Part shown: positions 2,476-58,375 of the stretch, in pieces | Numbering within the stretch: the stretch's first letter is position 1 | Layout of the letters: the number at the start of each line of letters is the position of its first letter | Origin: Minisyncoccota bacterium | GTDB taxonomy: Bacteria > Patescibacteriota > Minisyncoccia > UBA6257 > JAAZHW01 | Direction: 5' to 3' | DNA length: 64,000 nucleotides | Assembly (NCBI GenBank): GCA_035369485.1 | Contig: DAOSMC010000001.1 | Location: 2,283 to 66,282 of the forward strand | Notes under the pieces: generated by a model | The model's database searches: none | Seen by the model: only the letters and a program-made list of their open reading frames with translations | Told to the model about the DNA's origin: nothing | Made by a program: the position numbers and the translations under genes

Positions 2476-4155
2476 ATGGCGGATCAAGATGAAGCAAAAA
2501 AACTGAGCCATATATTAGAAGGGACGAGAGAAGCGGCCGAAGAGCGAGAAGCTGAAAGGTTGGCTAAAAGTCTTAAATTCCAATATGCCAATCTGACAAA
2601 ATTTGCTTCTCAGACTCAGGCCCTTCAGTTAATTAACGAGGAAGAGGCGCGAGCAGCTTTATGCGCGCCATTTAATGTTCAACAAAAAAAGGTATTTTTA
2701 GCGTGTAAGAATCCAGCGCTTGACGCAACAAAAAACGTGATTGATAGTTTAAAGCAACGAGGATATGAAGTGGAGATATTTGTGGTTTCTTCTAAATCGT
2801 TGGAGACTTTGTGGAAAGGATATAAGTTTATTACCGGTCGGAAAAAAGAAATTACCGGTGGTTTGGAAATTGATGCTAATCGATTGGCGGAACTATCGAG
2901 CGAGATAAAAAATATTGCCATTTTGAAAGAAAAAATTGATAAATTTGATAGTCCTTATATTTCTCAAATCTTTGAAATTATTATTGCAGGCGCTTTAACA
3001 ATGGATGCTTCTGATGTTCATATTGAGCCAGAAGAAAGCGGCGTGAGGTTAAGATATCGATTAGATGGCGTTTTGCAAGATATTGTTGATTTGAATGAAC
3101 ATTATTATCGCTCAATTTTATCAAGAATTAAATTGCTGGGTGGGATGAAGATTAATATTCATACCGCGCCTCAAGATGGACGTTTTACAATTAAAACAAA
3201 AGATTTAGAAATTGAAGTGCGTGTTTCAATTATTCCGAGTGCGTATGGTGAAACTGTGGTCATGCGCTTGCTTGATCCACGGAGAATCCAATTAGATTTA
3301 AAAGAATTAGGGTTTCGCGAAGACGACTTAGTTATTATTGAAGAGCAAGTTGCTCGGCCTAATGGGTTGATTTTGAACACTGGACCAACTGGTTCAGGTA
3401 AAACCACTACCTTATATGCATTTTTGAGACGCATTTATCAACCAGGCATTAAAATTATCACCATTGAAGATCCAATAGAATATCATTTAGAAGGAATTAC
3501 TCAAACACAAGTTAATCCCACGAGAGATTATACTTTTGCTAATGGTTTGCGTTCTATTCTGAGACAAGATCCGGATGTAATTTTGGTGGGAGAAATTCGT
3601 GATAATGAAACAGCGGAAATTGCAATGCATGCCGCATTAACAGGTCATCTTGTATTATCAACGCTTCATACAAATGATGCGTGCGGTACTATCCCGCGGC
3701 TTTTAGACATGAAGGTGCAGCCAGCGATTTTGGCGCCAGCTTTAAATTTAGCCATTGCTCAACGATTGGTGAGAAAACTTTGTGTTCATTGTCGGGAAAA
3801 GGTAGAGGCTACAGCAGAGCAAGCTGAAAAAATTCGTAAAGTAATAGAACGGCTTCCGGATCGAGTTAAGAAACCAACACTCGGCAAACAAATTACTTTT
3901 TACAAATCGAAAGGTTGCGAACTTTGTAATGGTACGGGCTATAAAGGACGAATAGCGATTGCGGAATTATTAGTGGTTGATAGAGAAATCCAGGATTTAA
4001 TTAATCAAGGCGATCGTATGCCGACGGCGAATGAAATTAAGGATTTGGCAATTAAAAAGGGGATGACTACGATGGAAGATGATGCTATTTTGAAGATTTT
4101 AGATGGAATTACCAGCTTATCTGAGGCAGAAAATGTGTTGGGAAAGTTGTTATAA
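2476..4155 (+). CDS. GspE/PilB-family secretion ATPase; second PilB paralog, distant from the pilus locus
   Basis: N-terminal GspE_N-like region, Walker A GPTGSGKTTT, Asp/His boxes and a C-terminal tetracysteine motif (CVHC...CELC). Confidence 0.75.
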   Translation: MADQDEAKKLSHILEGTREAAEEREAERLAKSLKFQYANLTKFASQTQALQLINEEEARAALCAPFNVQQKKVFLACKNPALDATKNVIDSLKQRGYEVEIFVVSSKSLETLWKGYKFITGRKKEITGGLEIDANRLAELSSEIKNIAILKEKIDKFDSPYISQIFEIIIAGALTMDASDVHIEPEESGVRLRYRLDGVLQDIVDLNEHYYRSILSRIKLLGGMKINIHTAPQDGRFTIKTKDLEIEVRVSIIPSAYGETVVMRLLDPRRIQLDLKELGFREDDLVIIEEQVARPNGLILNTGPTGSGKTTTLYAFLRRIYQPGIKIITIEDPIEYHLEGITQTQVNPTRDYTFANGLRSILRQDPDVILVGEIRDNETAEIAMHAALTGHLVLSTLHTNDACGTIPRLLDMKVQPAILAPALNLAIAQRLVRKLCVHCREKVEATAEQAEKIRKVIERLPDRVKKPTLGKQITFYKSKGCELCNGTGYKGRIAIAELLVVDREIQDLINQGDRMPTANEIKDLAIKKGMTTMEDDAILKILDGITSLSEAENVLGKLL

Positions 4156-4181
4156 AATTCAAATTGTGTAATGTATAATTG

Positions 4182-4226
4182 AAAAAGCGGCGGAAATTTT
4201 CTTTAAGAAAATTTCCGCCGCTTTTT
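4182..4226. repeat. GC-stem palindromic element, copy B: perfect 20-bp stem, A5/T5 flanks; putative terminator of the PilB-like gene
   Basis: aaaaagcggcggaaattttc-tttaa-gaaaatttccgccgcttttt. Confidence 0.75.
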
Positions 4227-4499
4227 CATCCGTCATCAAAATTATTTCATGAATTAATTCATGAAATAATAAACAATGAAAATGCTAATTTAGTATCAAT
4301 TCTTTTATTTTTTAAAAAAATTAAAATAGTGCATTGGTTTTGAAATTCAAGTTTTATTTTTGTCATTCGGAATGAAAGAAGTAGTTTTTAAAATTTGAAG
4401 TGATATAATATTTTTACTTGCGTTTAAAAAAAGCAGATTTATCTTGTTGTCAAAAAAATGAAGTTCAAATAATCGTGTCAGCTGTTTCTGTGTTTTTTA

Positions 4500-4745
4500 A
4501 GTTTTGTTTTAATAAAAAACAGCCCCTTCAACCCGGAGGCAATTTAATCTCGCAAAAAAGATGCGAGCTCAAGAATTTTTTAAGGCCTACCCGCTGACAG
4601 GCGAGTATGATAACCCAGTCGGAACCAGGTTACCCTTAAATAAATTCCCTATAGGCTTTAATTGGGTTGAAATAACGCCAATTGCCCCCAGGTTGAAAAG
4701 GCTGTTTCGGGTAACTATTTTTAAGAGAACAATAATCCTATAATG
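4500..4745. ncRNA. Candidate structured ncRNA of unknown class (GC-enriched island inside an 880-bp gene-free gap)
   Basis: GC content is clearly above the AT-rich surroundings. Local stems ctcgca/tgcgag at 4549-4567 and gctgttt/aaacagc at 4482-4517. No convincing ORF: the 60-aa track ORF at 4561-4743 is not protein-like. I could not recognise the family by eye. Confidence 0.25.
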
Positions 4746-4996
4746 ATATTATAGCACACCTAAAGATAAAAGTCAATAGTTTGACGGATATCGTAAAAAT
4801 GGTTAAATAACTAAAAATTAAAGAAGTAAAATGTATTATAGTGTTTAGTTATTTTAATGTCAAGAGGGGAGTTGGGGATAAGTTTAGCCCCCCAAAATTA
4901 TAAATTTTAGATTCTTCAATAAGGTAAATTACTGCTTTAATATTTTCCAAGCGTTATATTTATTATTAGAGTTGAAGATCAACTAATTTTTACACT

Positions 4997-5025
4997 TTGA
5001 CTTTTAAGATTTTGATTAATATAAT
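4997..5025 (+). promoter_or_regulatory. Near-consensus sigma70 promoter for ruvB: TTGACT - 17 nt - TATAAT, with the TSS about 6 nt before the ATG
   Basis: ttgact at 4997-5002, a 17-nt spacer, tataat at 5020-5025 and the start codon at 5038. Implies a leaderless or near-leaderless mRNA. Confidence 0.5.
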
Positions 5026-5037
5026 AAAAGTATTACC

Positions 5038-6051
5038 ATGTCTAAGAATATTTTCAAATCGGATCCACTACTTGATAATGCCCTGCGACCAAAACGATGG
5101 GAAGATTTTATCGGTCAAGAAAAAGTGAAAAAAAATTTAAGAATTATGTTGGGAGCGGCGCAAAAAAGAGAAGAGGTAGTAGACCACCTGCTTTTTTATG
5201 GCGGAGCAGGGTTGGGAAAAACAACACTAGCTTATTTAATTGCAGAAGAGATTCATGCCAATTTGAAAATTACATCTGGTCCAGCAATTGAAAAAGCAGC
5301 AGATCTAGCATCACTTCTCGCTAATTTAGAAGAAGGAGATATATTATTTATTGATGAAATCCATCGTTTAAATAAAATGATTGAAGAAATTTTATATTCT
5401 GCTATGGAATCGCGGGTTTTGAATTTAGTTTTAGGCAAACGTTCTTCTACTCGCGCTGTTCAATTAGATTTGCCGCCTTTTACTTTAATTGGTGCCACAA
5501 CAAGAATTGGCTTACTCTCCAGCCCCTTACGTTCTCGTTTTGGAGCTATTTTCAAATTGGATTTTTATGATTTAGAAGATATAAAAAAGATTTTGCAAAA
5601 CAATGCTAGGTTGCTGGGTGTTAATATTTCGGAAGAGGCAATGGAAATTTTAGCTCGAGCCAGTCGAGCCACTCCGCGAGTTGCCAATCGTTTGCTCAAA
5701 CGAAGTCGCGATTTGGCGACAATCGAAGGTAAGAGCGAGATTGATGCTGCAATTAGCCGCAAAATTTTAGAGTTATTTGATATTGATGAGTGGGGATTAG
5801 AAGCAACAGATCGAAAGATTTTAGAGGTAATTGTTGATCGATTTAATGGAGGGCCAGTGGGCATTAAAGCTTTAGCTGCCGCGACCAATGAAGAAGAAGA
5901 TACGATTGAAGAAATTTATGAACCATATTTAATGCGATTGGGTCTTTTAGAGCGTACAACACGTGGCCGAATGGTGAGCGATGCCGGATATAAACATTTA
6001 AATCTTTATCATTTAGCACAGAAAGGCGAACAAAAGAAATTGATAGATTGA
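5038..6051 (+). CDS. ruvB: Holliday junction branch-migration helicase RuvB
   Basis: AAA+ Walker A GGAGLGKTT, the conserved RuvB N-terminus (LRPKRWEDFIGQEKVKKNL) and a C-terminal winged helix. Ends in TGA. Confidence 0.9.
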   Translation: MSKNIFKSDPLLDNALRPKRWEDFIGQEKVKKNLRIMLGAAQKREEVVDHLLFYGGAGLGKTTLAYLIAEEIHANLKITSGPAIEKAADLASLLANLEEGDILFIDEIHRLNKMIEEILYSAMESRVLNLVLGKRSSTRAVQLDLPPFTLIGATTRIGLLSSPLRSRFGAIFKLDFYDLEDIKKILQNNARLLGVNISEEAMEILARASRATPRVANRLLKRSRDLATIEGKSEIDAAISRKILELFDIDEWGLEATDRKILEVIVDRFNGGPVGIKALAAATNEEEDTIEEIYEPYLMRLGLLERTTRGRMVSDAGYKHLNLYHLAQKGEQKKLID

Positions 6052-6106
6052 TTATAATAAAATTCAAAAGTCCGCCGGGGACGAGTAAATTCTTTTAATT
6101 AAAGAT

Positions 6107-6143
6107 GGCGGCGGAAAATTTTCGAAGAAAATTTTCCGCCGGC
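6107..6143. repeat. GC-stem palindromic element, copy C: 15-bp perfect stem plus an imperfect extension
   Basis: ggcggcggaaaattttc-gaa-gaaaattttccgccggc. Sits between ruvB and the LTD gene. The ORF-track start at 6105 reads through it. Confidence 0.7.
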
Positions 6144-6182
6144 CGCAAATTCATTTCTCAAAACAACCAATCAAAGTTTTAT

Positions 6183-7520
6183 ATGTTTAAACATTATTTT
6201 TCTTTTCTTATAGTTGCCTTGAGCGTCTTGTTGTTTTTTCCTTTGGTTCAAGCACTGGCTGTGGGGCCGGTGATTATTAATGAAATAATGTATGATTTAC
6301 AAGGAACAGACACAGATCATGAGTGGGTAGAAATTAAAAATATTTCAGATCAAGCAGTTGATTTGAAAGATTGGCGTTTTTATGACGGGAGCAATCATTT
6401 ATTAAATGAACCTCCTCAAAATGGCGGGCAGGGCAGTTTAATTATTGCGCCTGGTGGTTATGCTGTTTTAGCTGACAAAGCAGATGTTTTTTTAGCTGAT
6501 CATCCGGGTTTTGGTGGGATCGTGATTGATACGGTGATGAGTTTGAATAATACTGAGGAAACCGTGCAACTTATTGATCAAAGCGGCAATAGTATTGAAA
6601 AAATAAACTATCAGAAGGAAATGGGTGGCAACGGCAATGGTTATTCGTTGGAGCGTACGGGTGATTTTTCGATGCAATTTTGTGAATCTAATCAATTAGG
6701 AGGTTCGCCCGGCCAAGCTAATAATTTTGATTGCAATAAATCCTCTTTTATGCCGACTCCTTCGTTGACAGCGATGAATACGCCTACGCTAATGATGGCA
6801 ACTGTTTCTCCTAGCGCTTCCCCCGAAACGATTTTAGAAGATACGATTATTGAAAGTGAAGATAATTTGTTGCGAACGACGCCCATTGCTTCTTCGCCAG
6901 TGATAAAAGTAAGCATTATTATTAATGAATTTTTACCTAATCCAACCGGTTCTGATACAGACAATGAGTGGATTGAATTATATAATAACAGCGATGTTAA
7001 AGTAGCGCTTACAGATTGGTGGATTGAAGATGCGAGCGGGCAGAAATATACTTTTAAAGATGAAGAAATAATGAGTCAGGGTTATTTAACCCTTCCTTAT
7101 TCCAAAACGAAAATTACTTTAAATAACAATGGTGAAACTTTGAGTTTATATTCACCTCGAGGAGAATTAGCTTTTAAAATTTCTTATTCGGGCAAAGCCA
7201 ACGAGGGTATGTCTTTTGCGCGAGCCGGCCAAAATGACTGGCGATGGACTTCAATTCTTACTCCTAATAAGCAGAATCAATTTTCAAGCGAATCATCGCA
7301 AAATACGGAATTAGCAATTCAACAGATGGATGAATCGGATGTTGCTGAAAATAATGCGCCTTCAACTGTTGATGCCGACTCTTCTTTAAAGCAGCAGACA
7401 GTAACGAGTTCGATATCAAACGCGTCAGATAAGATAATTATTGTTGCTATTGGATTGGGTTTAATATTAAGTGTAGTAGCAGCAATTTTTATTAAAAAGA
7501 TTTTACCGCCAGTTCATTGA
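6183..7520 (+). CDS. Lamin-tail-domain (LTD) surface protein with a signal/TM N-terminus, two LTD repeats and a C-terminal TM anchor
   Basis: Two copies of the LTD signature (VIINEIMYD..GTDTDHEWVEIKN and IIINEFLPNPTGSDTDNEWIELYN) and a C-terminal hydrophobic IIIVAIGLGLILSVVAAIFI. The start was moved to the ATG at 6183 because 6105-6143 is the palindrome. Confidence 0.6.
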   Translation: MFKHYFSFLIVALSVLLFFPLVQALAVGPVIINEIMYDLQGTDTDHEWVEIKNISDQAVDLKDWRFYDGSNHLLNEPPQNGGQGSLIIAPGGYAVLADKADVFLADHPGFGGIVIDTVMSLNNTEETVQLIDQSGNSIEKINYQKEMGGNGNGYSLERTGDFSMQFCESNQLGGSPGQANNFDCNKSSFMPTPSLTAMNTPTLMMATVSPSASPETILEDTIIESEDNLLRTTPIASSPVIKVSIIINEFLPNPTGSDTDNEWIELYNNSDVKVALTDWWIEDASGQKYTFKDEEIMSQGYLTLPYSKTKITLNNNGETLSLYSPRGELAFKISYSGKANEGMSFARAGQNDWRWTSILTPNKQNQFSSESSQNTELAIQQMDESDVAENNAPSTVDADSSLKQQTVTSSISNASDKIIIVAIGLGLILSVVAAIFIKKILPPVH

Positions 7521-7527
7521 TGAAATT

Positions 7528-10080
7528 TTATTTTAAATCCGCTAGAGTTTCTCCTGTGTAATACTGAGCTTTTAACGGCACGGAAAGAAATTCATTTTGC
7601 TCCATTAAAGGAAGGAGATTGTTTATTGTCCATTCAACTTTGTTTTCTTTGACTTCAAAAATTAGCTCATCATGAATTTGCAAAATGAGACGGATATCGT
7701 CAATTGCATTTTCTTTTTGAAGAAAGTCATTAATTTTGATCATTGCTTTTTTAATGATGTCGGCGGCTAATCCTTGAATAGGGAAGTTGATAGCAGCGCG
7801 TTCGGCAAGGCTGCGGTATTTTTGATTGCCAGAGATCAAATCCCAAACCCAGCGAATGCGGCCGCTTAAAGTTTTAACGCAGCCAGTTTGTCGTGCTTCG
7901 GCCAAAGTTTTTTCTCTCCAGTCTTTAATATTGGCAAAATCATGATAATATTCTTCAATGAATTTTTTAGCTTGATCTTTTGGTATTTGAGCAGTTTCGC
8001 TAAATGCTTTAGCGCCCATCCCATAAAGAATGCCAAAATTTAATGTTTTGGCTTGGCGGCGCATTGCAGGCGTAACTTGATCAAGGGTGGTGTTATTTAT
8101 TTCTGCCGCTGTTAGAGCATGGATATCTTGGTCATTAAGAAAAGCCTCTTTCATTTTGGGATCATCGGCCAAAGAAGCTGCAATACGTAATTCAATTTGA
8201 GAATAGTCAAAACCAACAAATTGGTAGCCTTTTTCAGCAACGAAACCTTGTCTAATTTTTTTTGCCAATTCTCCTTCTATCGGAATATTTTGAAGATTGG
8301 GATTTTCTGAAGAGAGGCGACCAGTTGCTGTACCTGTTTGATTATAAGTGGTATGAATACGGCAATTTTCATCCATTAAAGATGGCAACGGTTCTAAATA
8401 AGTGCTTTTGAGTTTCATTAATTCGCGATATTGAAGAATTTTAGCGATAGCCGGATGGAGATCTTTAATTTTGATGAGTTCATTTTCACGAGTAGATAAA
8501 AGCCCAGTGGCAGTTTTAGAAAGATGTTTGTTGTTCAAATTAAGTTTTTGGAAAATTACTTGAGAAAGTTGTTTGGGGGAATTAATATTAAACTCCGAAT
8601 TCGTTAGCTCAAAAATCTCTTTTTCTAATTTTTGTAATTCGTGATTTAATTCATCGGTTAAGCGATAAAAATGATCCGGATTAATTTTAATGCCGAAATG
8701 CTCCATTTGCGCCAAAACATTAACGAGGGGCATTTCAATTTGTTGGAAGACATTTGTTAAAGCAAGCTCTTTGATTTTATTTACCTGCGCTGTTTTGATT
8801 TTTTTCAGGATTGTTAAAATATTATCGTTGGGAAGAGGGGTTTTGAAAATGATTTGCCAAATTCTTTGAAGGGAGTAATCTTTTAATTCAGAATTGATGA
8901 GCCATTGAGCAATTTTAATATCATGGTTTAAGTTGAGATTGTAATCATCAATTTGTTTTACAATATTTTTTAAATCATAACCCACGAGAGAAAATTGTTT
9001 AATTTTATTAAAGGAATTTTGATCTTTAGGTAAAGAAAAAAATTGATCGGCTACTAATAATTCTACATTCTTATTGAGATTAATAATGGCTTCGGCTTGA
9101 GTTGGCAGAGGATTTAATTTTTGTTCTGTTTGCCATTGAATAGAGGCTTGAGAGAAAGCGTTCTCTGGCGTATTGGTTTGGGACTCTTCGGGCATTAATT
9201 GATTTACAAGACTTTCAAATCGCCATTTTTTAAAAAGAGGAATGAGTGATTCTTTGTTAATGCCATTAAATTTTAAATCAGAAAGTTTTACTTCTAAAGG
9301 AGCATTGCAATTTAGAGTTGTTAAGTATTTACTAAAAAATGCTTGCTCTTTTTGATCTAAGAGCGCAGCTAAAGTTTTTGGTTTAATTAAGCGCGCTTCA
9401 GAAGTTTTCTGAAAATTTTCATTTTCAATTTTTTGGTAAAGGTTTTCTAAGGTTTCAAAATGTTTAATTAATTCAATAGCTGTTTTTTCTCCAATTCCTT
9501 TGACGCCCAAAATATTATCAGAAGGATCGCCTTTTAACGCCTTAAAATCAATTAACTGTTTAGGACTAAGGCCATAGCGTTCCTGTACTTCCTTTTCATT
9601 ATAAATAACGGTGTCTTGAATTCCTTTTTTCATTGTGTAAACCACTACTTTATCATCGTCTACTAATTGAAGAGTGTCCAGATCACCAGTGAGAATAATA
9701 ATTTTTAAATCTTTTTCGTTAGAGAATTTTTTGACAAGCGTGCCGATGAGATCATCGGCCTCATAACCGGGAATTTCGAAATATTTAATAGGAACGGCAC
9801 TAAAAAACTCTCTTACTTTATCAAACTGAGGAATAAGATTTTCATCAGTTTTTGGGCGAGTGGCTTTATATTCTTTATATTCTTTATGCCTAAAAGTAGG
9901 TTCGGCCAAATCGAAGCATGCCGCGAGATAATCAGGTTTAAATTCGCGGATAATTTTTAAAATAATGCGAATAGTGCCATACACTGCGCCAATAGGTTCA
10001 CCTTTAGGAGTGGTTAAATTTGGCAAAGCATGAAAGCAGCGATGGATTAACGCATGAGAATCAATAAGGATAAGAGTCAT
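7528..10080 (-). CDS. polA: DNA polymerase I
   Basis: N-terminal 5'-3' exonuclease (LILIDSHALIHRCFHA) and a C-terminal family A polymerase with motifs RRQAKTLNFGILYGMGA and LQIHDELIFE. The start was trimmed to the ATG at 10080 because the track start at 10098 is TTG. Confidence 0.85.
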   Translation of the reverse strand: MTLILIDSHALIHRCFHALPNLTTPKGEPIGAVYGTIRIILKIIREFKPDYLAACFDLAEPTFRHKEYKEYKATRPKTDENLIPQFDKVREFFSAVPIKYFEIPGYEADDLIGTLVKKFSNEKDLKIIILTGDLDTLQLVDDDKVVVYTMKKGIQDTVIYNEKEVQERYGLSPKQLIDFKALKGDPSDNILGVKGIGEKTAIELIKHFETLENLYQKIENENFQKTSEARLIKPKTLAALLDQKEQAFFSKYLTTLNCNAPLEVKLSDLKFNGINKESLIPLFKKWRFESLVNQLMPEESQTNTPENAFSQASIQWQTEQKLNPLPTQAEAIINLNKNVELLVADQFFSLPKDQNSFNKIKQFSLVGYDLKNIVKQIDDYNLNLNHDIKIAQWLINSELKDYSLQRIWQIIFKTPLPNDNILTILKKIKTAQVNKIKELALTNVFQQIEMPLVNVLAQMEHFGIKINPDHFYRLTDELNHELQKLEKEIFELTNSEFNINSPKQLSQVIFQKLNLNNKHLSKTATGLLSTRENELIKIKDLHPAIAKILQYRELMKLKSTYLEPLPSLMDENCRIHTTYNQTGTATGRLSSENPNLQNIPIEGELAKKIRQGFVAEKGYQFVGFDYSQIELRIAASLADDPKMKEAFLNDQDIHALTAAEINNTTLDQVTPAMRRQAKTLNFGILYGMGAKAFSETAQIPKDQAKKFIEEYYHDFANIKDWREKTLAEARQTGCVKTLSGRIRWVWDLISGNQKYRSLAERAAINFPIQGLAADIIKKAMIKINDFLQKENAIDDIRLILQIHDELIFEVKENKVEWTINNLLPLMEQNEFLSVPLKAQYYTGETLADLK

Positions 10081-10670: not shown

Positions 10671-10723
10671 GGCGAAAGGGGCGGCGGAAAATTTCTTTGA
10701 AATTTTCCGCCGCCCCTTTCGCC
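10671..10723. repeat. GC-stem palindromic element, copy D: perfect 25-bp stem, located between the divergent starts of tsaE (-) and murA (+)
   Basis: ggcgaaaggggcggcggaaaatttc-ttt-gaaattttccgccgcccctttcgcc. Not in a terminator position. Confidence 0.75.
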
Positions 10724-13864: not shown

Positions 13865-14030
13865 CATGGGATCCTTCGGGCGTTACCCTCAGGATGACGT
13901 AAGAAGCGAAAGCCGAAGGATCCTTCGGACTAAAACCCTCAGGATGACAATGTATTGGTTTGTCATTCTGAGTGAAACCTGCCTGCCGGTTAGGTAGGTG
14001 AAGAATCTCATACTCAGCAGTGATGGTTAA
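13865..14030. other. Structured repeat-rich intergenic element: two direct copies of GGATCCTTCGG...ACCCTCAGGATGAC, each with a nearby complement
   Basis: 13868-13878 ggatccttcgg pairs with 13912-13922 ccgaaggatcc. 13912-13927 is a perfect 16-nt palindrome. ctcaggatgac at 13939-13949 pairs with gtcattctgag at 13962-13972. GC is above background. Confidence 0.4.
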
Positions 14031-14035
14031 TAAGG

Positions 14036-14068
14036 CGGCGGCGAATTTCTTTTAGAAATTCGCCGCCG
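14036..14068. repeat. GC-stem palindromic element, copy E: 15-bp stem, loop TTT
   Basis: cggcggcgaatttct-ttt-agaaattcgccgccg, between holB and frr. Confidence 0.65.
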
Positions 14069-21471: not shown

Positions 21472-21624
21472 TTAATGTCTTAATCGATATCTTAAATTTT
21501 AAAATCTAACCTCAAATAATTTTAAAGGCATTAAAAATTATAAAATTATTTCGGTGATGCTTTTAGAATAACAATTGGATTGAAAGCCGCGGGATTCATC
21601 TATTAGATTTTGTTTTTGGATGCT

Positions 21625-21662
21625 GCGCGGTGGCGATTTTCTTTAGAAAATCGCCACCGCGC
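21625..21662. repeat. GC-stem palindromic element, copy F: perfect 17-bp stem, loop TTTA (variant GCGCGGTGGCG)
   Basis: gcgcggtggcgattttc-ttta-gaaaatcgccaccgcgc, between mrdA and greA. Confidence 0.7.
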
Positions 21663-21705
21663 CGCTTCATCTCTAGTCGTTTATTACTTTTAGATTTAAT
21701 ATTTC

Positions 21706-57664: not shown

Positions 57665-57682
57665 TTTATATTTTTTATAAAT

Positions 57683-58375
57683 ATGAAGAAAGCCAAAATC
57701 CTTATTTTTTATGGCCCTCCAGGCGCCGGAAAAGACACGCAAGCTCGACGTATTGCGTTTAAATCAGGAGCTGTTATTGTTAGCTCATCAAAATTAATTG
57801 AAGAGAGAATTTTTGATCCTCAACTACAAAACGATCCAATTATTCAAAGAGAACGAAAAAATTATGAATCAGGCGCTTTATGCACGCCCGAATGGGTGAC
57901 CCAAATTATTAATGATAAAGTTAAAGAATTAGCAGCGCAAAAACAGGATCTTATTTTTACTGGTTCGCCACGTACAATTTATGAAGCAGAAAATGAAATT
58001 CCTTATTGGGAAACATTTTATGGCCAAGAAAATATTCATCCTATTTTAATTAATTTAAAACCAGAAACTTCAGTTTTTCGTAATACGCATCGCCGAGTTT
58101 GTGAAAAATGCGGATACCCTGTTATTTATTCGTGGGAGACTGAAATGTGGAAATTCTGTCCATTATGCGGAGGGAAAATCATTGATCGAGGTGTTCTTGA
58201 TGATGAGGCAACAATCAAGGTGCGCTTAGAAGAATATGAAAATCGTACCAAGCCCATTTTGGCTTATTTTCAAAAAAGAGGTTATCAAGTTATTGAAGTT
58301 GATGGCGAGCCGTTGCCAGATATTGTTACCCAAAACCTTATTGAAGCTTTGGCCAAAATTAACTTTTTTGATTAA
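57683..58375 (+). CDS. adk: Adenylate kinase with a zinc-binding LID (CxxC...CxxC)
   Basis: P-loop GPPGAGKDT and LID Cys4 (CEKCGY...CPLCGG). Confidence 0.8.
   Translation: MKKAKILIFYGPPGAGKDTQARRIAFKSGAVIVSSSKLIEERIFDPQLQNDPIIQRERKNYESGALCTPEWVTQIINDKVKELAAQKQDLIFTGSPRTIYEAENEIPYWETFYGQENIHPILINLKPETSVFRNTHRRVCEKCGYPVIYSWETEMWKFCPLCGGKIIDRGVLDDEATIKVRLEEYENRTKPILAYFQKRGYQVIEVDGEPLPDIVTQNLIEALAKINFFD

What the first reader, a model, noticed from the sequence alone, without database searches (positions are those of the whole stretch)
4156..5037. 880-bp gene-free gap with a GC-enriched 250-nt island (candidate ncRNA) and a 24-bp AT palindrome
In a genome with intergenic spacers typically under 150 bp, the space between the PilB-like gene and ruvB is about 880 bp with no credible ORF. 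The only track ORF (4561-4743) has no protein-like features and overlaps a segment, 4500-4745, that is distinctly GC-richer than its flanks. GC enrichment is the usual signature of structured RNAs in AT-rich genomes. Local helices (ctcgca/tgcgag, gctgttt/aaacagc, ggttacc) support folding. I could not assign it to RNase P, tmRNA, SRP or 6S by eye. Separately, 4241-4264 is a perfect 24-bp palindrome (atttcatgaatt|aattcatgaaat) typical of a dimeric transcription-factor operator, and 4997-5025 holds a near-consensus promoter for ruvB.
Basis: seen in the sequence. Interest (0 to 1): 0.55.

Follow-up and report, generated by a model that had tools for sequence, protein, structure and literature searches.

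The report
New structured RNA gene beside ruvB
The GC-rich island in this long spacer is a real gene for a roughly 190-230-nt folded non-coding RNA, read from the opposite strand to its neighbours, conserved in a group of ultra-small (CPR/Paceibacterota) bacteria, and matching no known RNA family; what it does is unknown.

Summary
The 882-bp spacer (4156-5037) is the longest in the window (median spacer 11 bp). Its island is 44% GC, against 29.5% for intergenic DNA.

The island is an RNA gene on the MINUS strand. The structured core is 4517-4707. It is driven by consensus sigma-70 promoters at 4776->4748 and 4863->4835 and ends in a U-run.

The same RNA lies between the PilB-like ATPase gene and ruvB, divergent from ruvB, in every related Paceibacterota locus except one lineage (RuvB 62-100% identical). 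Only the island is conserved; the AT-rich flanks, the palindrome and the hairpin are not.

With 18 distinct sequences, 96.5% of cells are paired and 25 of 53 pairs keep pairing through changes on both sides (6-10 in slid controls; 0 of 500 shuffles). Invariant G.U pairs fix the strand.

The fold is a long closing helix, an optional short hairpin, a long arm with a nearly invariant UNCG-capped apex, and a 3' hairpin.

There is no Rfam 15 match at E<=10 in three family members, no tmRNA, no conserved ORF, no other copy, no phage or plasmid match, and no description in the papers searched. I conclude it is a new family of stand-alone structured ncRNA. It most likely works by binding a protein, but that is inferred.

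The parts
4517..4707 (-). Structured core of the RNA gene, spanning the closing helix P1 from its 5' strand to its 3' strand. P1 arms are 4680-4707 and 4517-4544.
   Evidence: Minus strand folds to -92.1 kcal/mol (z -7.7); plus strand to -67.1 (z -3.4). Inverted repeat I2. Model R1 gives 175 bits on the minus strand and 50 on the plus. Covariation.
4708..4741 (-). Predicted 5' leader, from the inferred start site (about 7 nt after the -10 box) to P1. Its length varies among relatives: the -10 box ends 6-39 nt before the modelled region, which begins 2 nt 5' of P1.
   Evidence: Position inferred from the promoter. No transcript data.
4509..4519 (-). U-run (UUUUUUAUU) overlapping and following the 3' strand of P1. 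It looks like an intrinsic terminator or 3'-end signal.
   Evidence: Sequence. A T-run directly after P1 is present in 10 of 18 distinct relatives; L012 has a separate downstream terminator hairpin.
4748..4776 (-). Proximal promoter: TTGACT-17-TATAAT with TG (extended -10).
   Evidence: Scores 11/12. An 11-12/12 consensus promoter is present at the equivalent place in all 16 loci examined and aligned.
4835..4863 (-). Distal promoter: TTGACA-17-TATAAT, a perfect consensus, in tandem with the proximal one.
   Evidence: Scores 12/12. Both boxes are conserved in L030, L021 and (weaker) L025.
4662..4681 (-). P2, a short hairpin (UUGG...CCAA) with a variable loop. It is optional across the wider family.
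   Evidence: Present in all 18 close members, with changes in L013 (GGGG/CCUU) and L008 (UUGGC/GCUAA). Absent in L033 and L034.
4570..4648 (-). P3, a long arm with internal loops.
   Evidence: Alignment A4 columns 73-83 pair with 141-151, 87-88 with 137-138, and 90-98 with 103-111. These helices are 94-100% paired, and 6 pairs change on both sides.
4609..4635 (-). P3 apex: GGGUAACCUGGU-UCCG-ACUGGGUUAUC. This is the most conserved element of the family. It has a UNCG tetraloop (4620-4623) on a stem with invariant tandem U.G/G.U pairs.
   Evidence: U.G and G.U are invariant in 18 of 18 sequences. The closing pair switches from U-A to C-G in 3 sequences. The motif is kept in L032, L033 and L034 and occurs once per locus.
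4587..4605 (-). Extra hairpin inserted in the 3' side of P3, specific to one lineage.
   Evidence: Present in the window group, L025 and L006. Absent in 11 of 18 members.
4549..4567 (-). P4, a 6-bp hairpin with a variable loop.
   Evidence: 3 of 6 pairs change on both sides in A4, and 4 of 6 in A7.
4180..4228 (.). Perfect 24+24-nt hairpin just after the PilB-like gene. Probably a bidirectional terminator and not part of the RNA gene.
   Evidence: I1. Similar hairpins at 2244-2280 and 10679-10715. Not conserved beyond the 99% strain.
4241..4270 (.). Perfect 30-bp AT palindrome. Its role is unknown and it is not part of the RNA gene.
4997..5025 (+). ruvB promoter, TTGACT-17-TATAAT. The -10 box ends 12 nt before the ATG.
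   Evidence: Layout conserved in L030 and L021.

Best explanation
SHOWN: The island is an independently transcribed gene for a structured non-coding RNA on the minus strand. The core is 191 nt and the predicted primary transcript about 230 nt.

Its fold is a three- or four-way junction with these parts:
- a closing helix of 22-32 bp whose outer sequence is free to vary
- an optional short hairpin (P2)
- a long arm (P3) whose UNCG-capped apex, with tandem G.U pairs, is nearly invariant
- a short 3' hairpin (P4)

It has consensus sigma-70 promoters (two in tandem in this lineage) and usually a U-run after the closing helix. It is single-copy. It has been inherited vertically in one slot, divergent from ruvB and convergent with a PilB-like ATPase gene, across Paceibacterota genomes whose RuvB is only 62-65% identical. 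It belongs to no family in Rfam 15.

INFERRED (about 45% on its own): it acts in trans as an abundant, stable RNA that works by binding a protein, as an RNP scaffold or decoy. The protein would recognise the invariant helical elements (the P3 apex and inner P1). The long closing helix would clamp the fold and protect the ends.

The reasons for this inference are:
- conservation sits in paired segments with fixed wobble pairs
- all loops and single-stranded joiners vary or can be lost, so there is no conserved seed for base-pairing to target mRNAs
- the promoters are of the strongest type
For: - Strand and fold: minus strand -92.1 kcal/mol (z -7.7), plus strand -67.1 (z -3.4). Model R1 gives 175 against 50 bits. 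G.U pairs invariant in 18 of 18 sequences would be C.A mismatches on the plus strand.
- Conservation: only the island is conserved upstream of ruvB, in L006-L031 and, in diverged form, in L032, L033 and L034.
- Covariation: 96.5% of cells are paired, and 25 of 53 pairs change on both sides against 6-10 in slid controls; 0 of 500 shuffles reach this. With L032 added, 28 of 53 pairs.
- Promoter: scores 11-12 of 12 in all 16 loci examined, on the RNA strand. The tandem promoter is conserved in the subclade.
- No known family: Rfam scans at E<=10 give nothing in the island in the window, L032 or L034. ARAGORN finds no tmRNA.
- Not coding: no frame is kept open, substitutions show no codon periodicity, and indels are not multiples of 3.
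- Not mobile: one copy per locus, and no viral, phage or plasmid match.
Against: - There are no transcript data, so the start site, 3' end and abundance are all inferred from sequence.
- The protein-binding mechanism rests only on the pattern of conservation, and no partner is identified.
- 8 of 18 close members lack a U-run directly after P1, so the 3'-end mechanism is not uniform.
- One close lineage (L004/L005, RuvB 86%) has no copy next to ruvB. Whether it has one elsewhere is unknown, so the RNA may be dispensable.
- The sequences come from one clade and are related by descent, which inflates shuffle-based significance. The slid-partner control, which keeps relatedness, still separates clearly.
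Confidence: 0.82

Rival explanations
1. It is a highly diverged member of a known housekeeping RNA class that Rfam models fail to recognise in CPR bacteria. The most plausible is a 6S/Ms1-type RNA that binds RNA polymerase.
For: The size (170-230 nt), long closing helix, very strong promoters in tandem and single copy resemble ssrS (my knowledge of E. coli ssrS). 6S-like RNAs are known to escape sequence-based detection and have been found through synteny instead (Ms1; abstract of PMC9130861, seen).
Against: No hit to any 6S-clan, SRP, RNase P, tmRNA or Y RNA model at E<=10 in three diverged members. There is no large central bubble: the junction is tight, with joiners of 1-7 nt in L034 and L032, and P4 is a covarying stable hairpin. 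The most conserved part is a helix apex, which in 6S RNA is variable.
Confidence: 0.08
2. It is a trans-acting base-pairing small RNA that regulates mRNAs through a short seed.
For: It is a stand-alone gene with a promoter and a terminator-like end. The joiner UUAAUGCCUUCUAGGG is conserved in the close family.
Against: That joiner is not kept in L032, L033 or L034. Loops vary (UCCG, UUCG, UUUG, UGAG; P2 and P4 loops). Conservation lies in the helices. At about 190 nt with 53 or more covarying or conserved pairs, it is far more structure than a seed carrier needs.
Confidence: 0.06
3. It is a catalytic or ligand-binding RNA (a ribozyme, or an orphan aptamer acting in trans).
For: Multi-helix junction, invariant tandem G.U pairs (a known metal-binding motif, from my own knowledge), and strong conservation of a compact core.
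Against: No match to any ribozyme or riboswitch model. The junction and its joiners, where active sites or pockets usually lie, are the least conserved parts. P2 can be lost. No pseudoknot was found.
Confidence: 0.04
4. Its role is local: transcription of the RNA gene, or the RNA as an antisense partner, controls ruvB (or the PilB-like gene) through promoter competition or interference.
For: It is divergent from ruvB in every locus that carries it, including L013, where the other neighbour differs. In L019, L026 and L031 its -35 box is 7 nt from the ruvB start codon, so ruvB transcription must cross it.
Against: In the window and close relatives, ruvB has its own consensus promoter 220 nt or more beyond the RNA promoter, and spacing ranges from 46 to 680 nt. 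Interference alone would not select for compensatory changes in four helices or for fixed G.U pairs. The synteny of the whole region is conserved anyway.
Confidence: 0.05
5. It is a plus-strand element: a 5' leader or riboswitch of ruvB, or a small protein gene (ORF 4561-4743).
For: It lies upstream of ruvB on the map. A 60-codon ATG ORF exists on the plus strand.
Against: The plus strand folds much worse and scores 50 against 175 bits. The G.U pairs would become C.A mismatches. The ruvB promoter lies downstream of the island. The ORF is not kept in relatives, there is no codon periodicity, and there is a 22-nt indel.
Confidence: 0.01
6. It is a miniature transposable element or the remnant RNA of a mobile element (MITE, retron msr/msd, or TnpB/IscB guide RNA).
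For: 28-nt terminal inverted repeat, 86% complementary. These genomes do carry short interspersed repeats.
Against: Single copy in 64 kb and in every locus. Fixed genomic slot across deep divergence. All four arm mismatches are G.U on one strand. It has its own consensus promoter. No reverse transcriptase, TnpB or IscB gene within 10 kb in any locus. No phage, plasmid or viral match.
Confidence: 0.01

Closest known systems
Orphan stand-alone structured ncRNAs found by comparative genomics of GC-rich intergenic regions (for example raiA motif RNA, OLE RNA and other motifs from GC-IGR searches; PMC6429828, PMC11109978)
   Same: Found in the same way: a long, GC-rich spacer in an AT-rich genome. 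It has its own promoter and terminator-like end, a multi-helix fold supported by covariation, lineage-restricted distribution and unknown biochemical function.
   Different: No sequence or structure match to any of them (Rfam 15). It occurs in Paceibacterota (CPR), which the text of those two surveys does not mention. It has a fixed genomic slot beside ruvB.
6S RNA / Ms1 RNA (RNA-polymerase-binding RNAs)
   Same: Similar length, a long closing helix formed by the 5' and 3' ends, single copy, and very strong (here tandem) sigma-70 promoters. This class is known to be missed by sequence models in some phyla.
   Different: It has a tight three- or four-way junction rather than a rod with a large central bubble. 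The conserved element is a helix apex. No 6S model hit.
Bacterial Y RNA (YrlA)
   Same: A long terminal stem plus a multi-helix module with tRNA-like topology: four helices in the order closing stem, short arm, long arm, short arm.
   Different: There is no T-loop. The apex is a UNCG tetraloop whose closing pair covaries, and the P4 loop varies. No rsr (Ro) gene appears in any neighbourhood examined. No Rfam hit.
SRP RNA
   Same: The most conserved part is the apex of a long hairpin, carried on a long helix formed by the ends, as expected for a protein-docking site.
   Different: It lacks the defining helix-8 features (GNRA tetraloop, and the symmetric and asymmetric loops with conserved A and G residues). 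The apex stem is fully paired and has a UNCG loop. No SRP model hit.

Membership tests
Any Rfam 15 family (4227 covariance models) | Score at or near the family's gathering threshold | tested here: not met
   No match of any kind inside the island at E<=10 with permissive filters in the window. L032 and L034 give only scattered chance-level hits far below gathering scores. The whole window at gathering thresholds gives only 3 tRNAs.
6S RNA | Extended rod with a large single-stranded central bubble flanked by closing and terminal stems | tested here: not met
   The consensus is a three- or four-way junction with joiners of 1-7 nt in L032 and L034. P4 on the 3' side is a covarying hairpin.
6S RNA | Binds sigma-70 holoenzyme and templates pRNA synthesis | not testable with these tools
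   Needs biochemistry.
SRP RNA | Helix 8 with a GNRA tetraloop and conserved symmetric and asymmetric internal loops | tested here: not met
   The apex loop is UCCG, UUCG, UUUG or UGAG. The adjacent stem is fully paired with tandem G.U pairs. No SRP model hit.
tmRNA | tRNA-like domain plus a tag reading frame | tested here: not met
   ARAGORN finds only three tRNAs in the window. No Rfam hit.
RNase P RNA | Conserved P4 helix and CR-I to CR-V sequences, length over 300 nt | tested here: not met
   The core is 170-191 nt. No RNase P model hit at E<=10.
Y RNA / YrlA | Adjacent rsr (Ro60) gene, and a tRNA-like module with a T-loop | tested here: not met
   No TROVE/Ro gene among the called neighbours in 13 loci. 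The apex closing pair covaries as a tetraloop, not a 7-nt T-loop.
Riboswitch or cis-regulatory leader | Lies in the 5' UTR of a downstream gene on the same strand | tested here: not met
   On the RNA strand, the next gene (PilB-like) is convergent. The RNA ends with its closing helix and, in most members, a U-run.
MITE or other mobile repeat | Multiple dispersed copies, variable insertion sites and target-site duplications | tested here: not met
   One copy per 64-kb window and per locus, always in the same slot.
Retron msr/msd or TnpB/IscB guide RNA | Adjacent reverse transcriptase or TnpB/IscB gene | tested here: not met
   None within 10 kb in any locus (Pfam lists).
Stand-alone structured ncRNA gene (generic kind) | Own promoter, defined end, conserved secondary structure with compensatory changes, and no coding potential | tested here: met
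   Promoter. U-run or terminator. Covariation. No ORF. Actual transcription was not testable.

The most novel reading that the evidence does not exclude
This is the founding member of a functional RNA class specific to CPR/Paceibacterota bacteria: an abundant RNA whose invariant G.U-containing helices dock an as yet unknown protein, with no counterpart among known bacterial RNAs. The boldest version is that its unbroken linkage to ruvB and its junction-shaped fold reflect a role with the recombination or DNA-uptake machinery, for example as a mimic or regulator of branched nucleic-acid substrates. Nothing here excludes that version, but only synteny supports it.
Probability: 0.3. Interest if true: 0.75.

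Novelty: new member of a known kind. Interest (0 to 1): 0.55.

Why it matters
CPR/Patescibacteria are a large, mostly uncultured part of bacterial diversity with tiny genomes that have lost many standard functions. Any gene they keep under strong selection and express from consensus promoters is likely to matter to their biology.

I found no description of this or any other clade-specific structured RNA from Paceibacterota in the papers searched. This one is large enough (about 190 nt, four helices) to have a specific molecular job.

It offers three things: a concrete target for metatranscriptome mapping, a new covariance model for genome annotation, and a starting point for finding its protein partner by phyletic profiling.

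Tried and rejected
- Rfam at permissive thresholds on the window island and on two diverged homologs gave nothing. The only hits in the spacer were spurious microRNA and sRNA matches to the perfect hairpin at 4180-4228.
- tmRNA/tRNA search: nothing in the spacer.
- Plus-strand reading and ORF 4561-4743: rejected.
- MITE or mobile element: rejected.
- Pseudoknot or extra-helix search by exhaustive column pairing: only non-covarying G/U-rich alternatives, so no evidence.
- Hammerhead-like core (CUUGAN before P4, AAA after it), T-loop in the P3 apex, kink-turn in P3, and resemblance of the P3 apex to 16S rRNA helix 45 (shared GGUAACC...GGUU). I considered these by eye or from memory. None fits: the conserved residues differ, the tetraloop closing pair covaries, and no Rfam SSU or ribozyme hit appears. 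I do not claim any of them.
- Palindrome as operator: no recurrence of the half-site above chance and no conservation, so unresolved.
- Literature searches for a described CPR/Patescibacteria ncRNA or a missing 6S RNA: nothing relevant.
- The strict DNA pattern found only 3 species-representative genomes and 14 metagenome contigs. This understates the family, because the diverged members L032-L034 do not match it.

Full report
**1. The observation**

The spacer between the PilB-like T2SSE ATPase gene (2476-4155, +) and ruvB (5038-6051, +) is 882 bp. In a crude gene map of the 64-kb window it is the longest spacer. The median is 11 bp and the next longest is 571 bp.

Positions 4515-4707 are 44% GC. 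Intergenic DNA is 29.5%, coding DNA 34.6% and the whole window 34.1%. So the island stands out even against genes.

The ruvB promoter match is real (TTGACT-17-TATAAT at 4997-5025).

- a perfect 24+24-nt hairpin at 4180-4228, just after the ATPase gene
- two consensus sigma-70 promoters on the minus strand, 4776->4748 (11/12, with TG) and 4863->4835 (12/12), both pointing into the island
- the strand of the RNA itself, which is minus

**2. The strand**

The island is flanked by a 28-nt inverted repeat (4517-4544 and 4680-4707, 86% complementary). All four mismatches in it are G.U pairs when read on the minus strand, and C.A mismatches on the plus strand.

The minus strand folds to -92.1 kcal/mol (z -7.7). 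The plus strand folds to -67.1 (z -3.4). On the minus strand the closing helix is followed by UUUUUUAUU.

**3. Comparative evidence**

The organism is a Parcubacteria/Paceibacterota (CPR) bacterium, judging from the source names on the closest RuvB homologs (taxonomy).

I fetched contigs that encode RuvB proteins 62-100% identical to the window's. I also scanned the genome and metagenome collections with a pattern built from invariant blocks.

In every locus except L004/L005, the island, and only the island, is conserved in the same slot. It lies on the strand opposite to ruvB, between ruvB and the T2SSE gene. In L013 the other neighbour is a methyltransferase gene, yet the RNA still sits beside ruvB.

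The AT-rich flanks, the hairpin and the palindrome are kept only in a 99%-identical strain. In a relative with 92% RuvB identity they are replaced by unrelated, repeat-rich sequence.

Every one of 16 loci examined has an 11-12/12 consensus promoter on the RNA strand, often with an extended -10 box. It ends 6-39 nt before the modelled region, which begins 2 nt 5' of the closing helix. In the window's subclade the second, distal promoter is conserved too.

**4. Structure**

I aligned eighteen distinct sequences (A4). They give a consensus of 53 nested pairs:
- P1, 26 pairs
- P3, in three segments, capped by a UNCG tetraloop
- P4, 6 pairs

On this alignment 96.5% of cells form standard pairs. When the 3' partners are slid by 1-3 columns, the figure drops to 35-62%. 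25 pairs keep pairing through changes on both sides, against 6-10 when slid. None of 500 shuffles reaches any observed measure.

Examples of compensatory change:
- The tetraloop closing pair switches from U-A to C-G in three sequences.
- P4 appears as CUCGCA/UGCGAG, CUCGUG/CACGAG, CUCAUG/UAUGAG, CCCAC/GUGGG and CUCAAU/AUUGAG.
- The outer half of P1 is almost entirely rewritten between lineages.

Seven G.U pairs are invariant or nearly so. These include a tandem U.G/G.U in the P3 apex and G30.U188 in P1, and they fix the strand.

A short hairpin P2 (UUGG/CCAA) can form in all 18 sequences, with changes in L013 and L008. A 19-nt extra hairpin inside P3 (window 4587-4605) is present in only 7 of the 18.

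A covariance model built from A4 (R1) scores the window at 175 bits on the minus strand and 50 on the plus. It finds one copy per locus, and none in L004.

**5. Wider family**

In three more distant genomes (RuvB 62-65% identical), the same T2SSE-ruvB spacer holds a diverged homolog on the same strand. Its closing helix is completely different in sequence but equally long, and it has a P3 arm and a P4 hairpin. L032 and L034 have a recognisable promoter and all three end in a U-run. P2 is present in L032 and absent in L033 and L034.

R1 scores:
- L032: 68.9 bits, E 1.6e-15
- L034: 49 bits, E 2.8e-10
- L033: P3 domain only, 19.5 bits

With L032 added, 28 of 53 pairs show double changes.

The family core is therefore a long closing helix of free sequence, tight junctions, a P4 hairpin, and the P3 apex UAAC-CUGGU-[tetraloop]-RCUGG-RUUAUUCC. 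The strict pattern scans (3 species genomes, 14 metagenome contigs) understate the range.

**6. What it is not**

- No Rfam 15 family matches at E<=10, in the window or in two diverged members.
- ARAGORN finds no tmRNA.
- No reading frame is kept, substitutions show no codon periodicity, and indels are not multiples of three.
- It is single-copy, in a fixed slot, and absent from viral contigs, phage records and plasmid records. It is not a MITE.
- No reverse transcriptase, TnpB or IscB gene lies nearby (Pfam lists).
- It is not a leader: the next gene on its strand is convergent.
- It does not have 6S architecture (tight junction, covarying P4), the SRP helix-8 motif, or a T-loop.
- I found no additional covarying helix.
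- The literature searches found no description of it.

**7. How it most likely works**

*Shown:* this is a conserved, structured, non-coding gene with its own consensus promoters.

*Inferred:* it is an abundant trans-acting RNA that works through a bound protein. The reasoning is as follows.
- The invariant positions lie in helices that carry fixed wobble pairs.
- In the close family, the same 7-bp element AACCUGG/CYGGGUU, with a U.G at the same place, occurs twice: once in inner P1 and once in the P3 apex.
- Every loop and joiner varies or can be lost, so there is no conserved seed for base-pairing.
- The junction, where ribozyme or aptamer cores usually lie, is the least conserved part.
- The long closing helix would clamp the fold and protect both ends. 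In most members, together with the U-run, it resembles an intrinsic terminator.

I put about 45% on this mechanism. The rest is spread over a diverged 6S-type RNA, a base-pairing sRNA, a ribozyme or aptamer, and local control of ruvB.

The ruvB linkage is striking. In L019, L026 and L031 the RNA's -35 box is 7 nt from the ruvB start codon. But the spacing ranges from 46 to 680 nt, the window's ruvB has its own promoter, and the whole region is syntenic. The linkage may therefore be historical rather than functional.

**8. Novelty and verdict**

This is a new family of a known kind of thing: a stand-alone structured bacterial ncRNA. It occurs in a poorly explored phylum. The evidence that it is real is strong, and there is no evidence yet for what it does.

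The strand, the limits and the promoters are now defined. The palindrome-as-operator idea is not supported.

Noticed in passing
window 4180-4228; also 2244-2280, 10679-10715, 14036-14068, 21619-21668: There is a perfect 24+24-nt hairpin right after the PilB-like gene. It is one of several intergenic hairpins sharing the core CGGCGGAAA(A)TTTC (or close variants). They look like a family of bidirectional terminator hairpins with a common sequence, rather than independent terminators.
   Followed up: partly
window 4241-4270: A perfect 30-bp AT palindrome (ATTATTTCATGAATTAATTCATGAAATAAT). It is unique in the window and its half-site is not enriched. It is conserved only in the 99% strain L020 and absent in L030. 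Function unknown.
   Followed up: yes
window ~13865-14010; L004 ~9650-9900; L021 12999-13986 (several tandem copies); L030 ~5330-5700 and 5900-6190: A short interspersed repeat with the ends GTCATTCTGAG...GAAGAATC and GGATCCTTCG...CAGGATGAC fills several long spacers in these genomes. In L004/L005 it occupies the spacer upstream of ruvB where the RNA gene is missing. It looks like a REP- or MITE-like element.
   Followed up: partly
window 4997-5040: The -10 box of the ruvB promoter ends 12 nt before the ATG, and there is no Shine-Dalgarno sequence, so ruvB mRNA would be leaderless or nearly so. The same layout is seen in L030 and L021.
   Followed up: no
L019 3207-3254; L026 6458-6505; L031 4573-4620: Only 46 nt separate the RNA from the ruvB start codon, and the RNA's -35 box is 7 nt from the ATG. 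Here ruvB must be transcribed from within or across the RNA gene, which could cause promoter interference or antisense pairing.
   Followed up: no
window 4682-4688 with 4531-4537, and 4625-4631 with 4612-4618 (minus strand): The same 7-bp helical element, AACCUGG paired with CYGGGUU and with a U.G wobble at the same place, occurs twice in the RNA: in inner P1 and in the P3 apex. It might provide two docking sites for one protein. The duplication is not kept in the distant members L032 and L034.
   Followed up: partly
window 4401-4409 (+): An extended -10-like sequence (TGATATAAT) on the plus strand points antisense into the RNA gene. It has no good -35 box, and I did not assess its conservation.
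   Followed up: no
window 57665-58235: The second-longest spacer (571 bp, 36% GC) shows no folding signal on either strand (z about 0) and no Rfam hit. It may hold a short unannotated ORF or nothing.
   Followed up: no
L013 1768-3593: An RtcB RNA ligase and Archease gene pair lies 2-4 kb from the RNA in this one locus only. This is probably coincidence.
   Followed up: no
L015 5822-7518: In this close relative the T2SSE-ruvB spacer is about 1.7 kb: 824 bp before the RNA and 680 bp after it, with no ORF of 90 aa or more. I did not examine the extra sequence.
   Followed up: no
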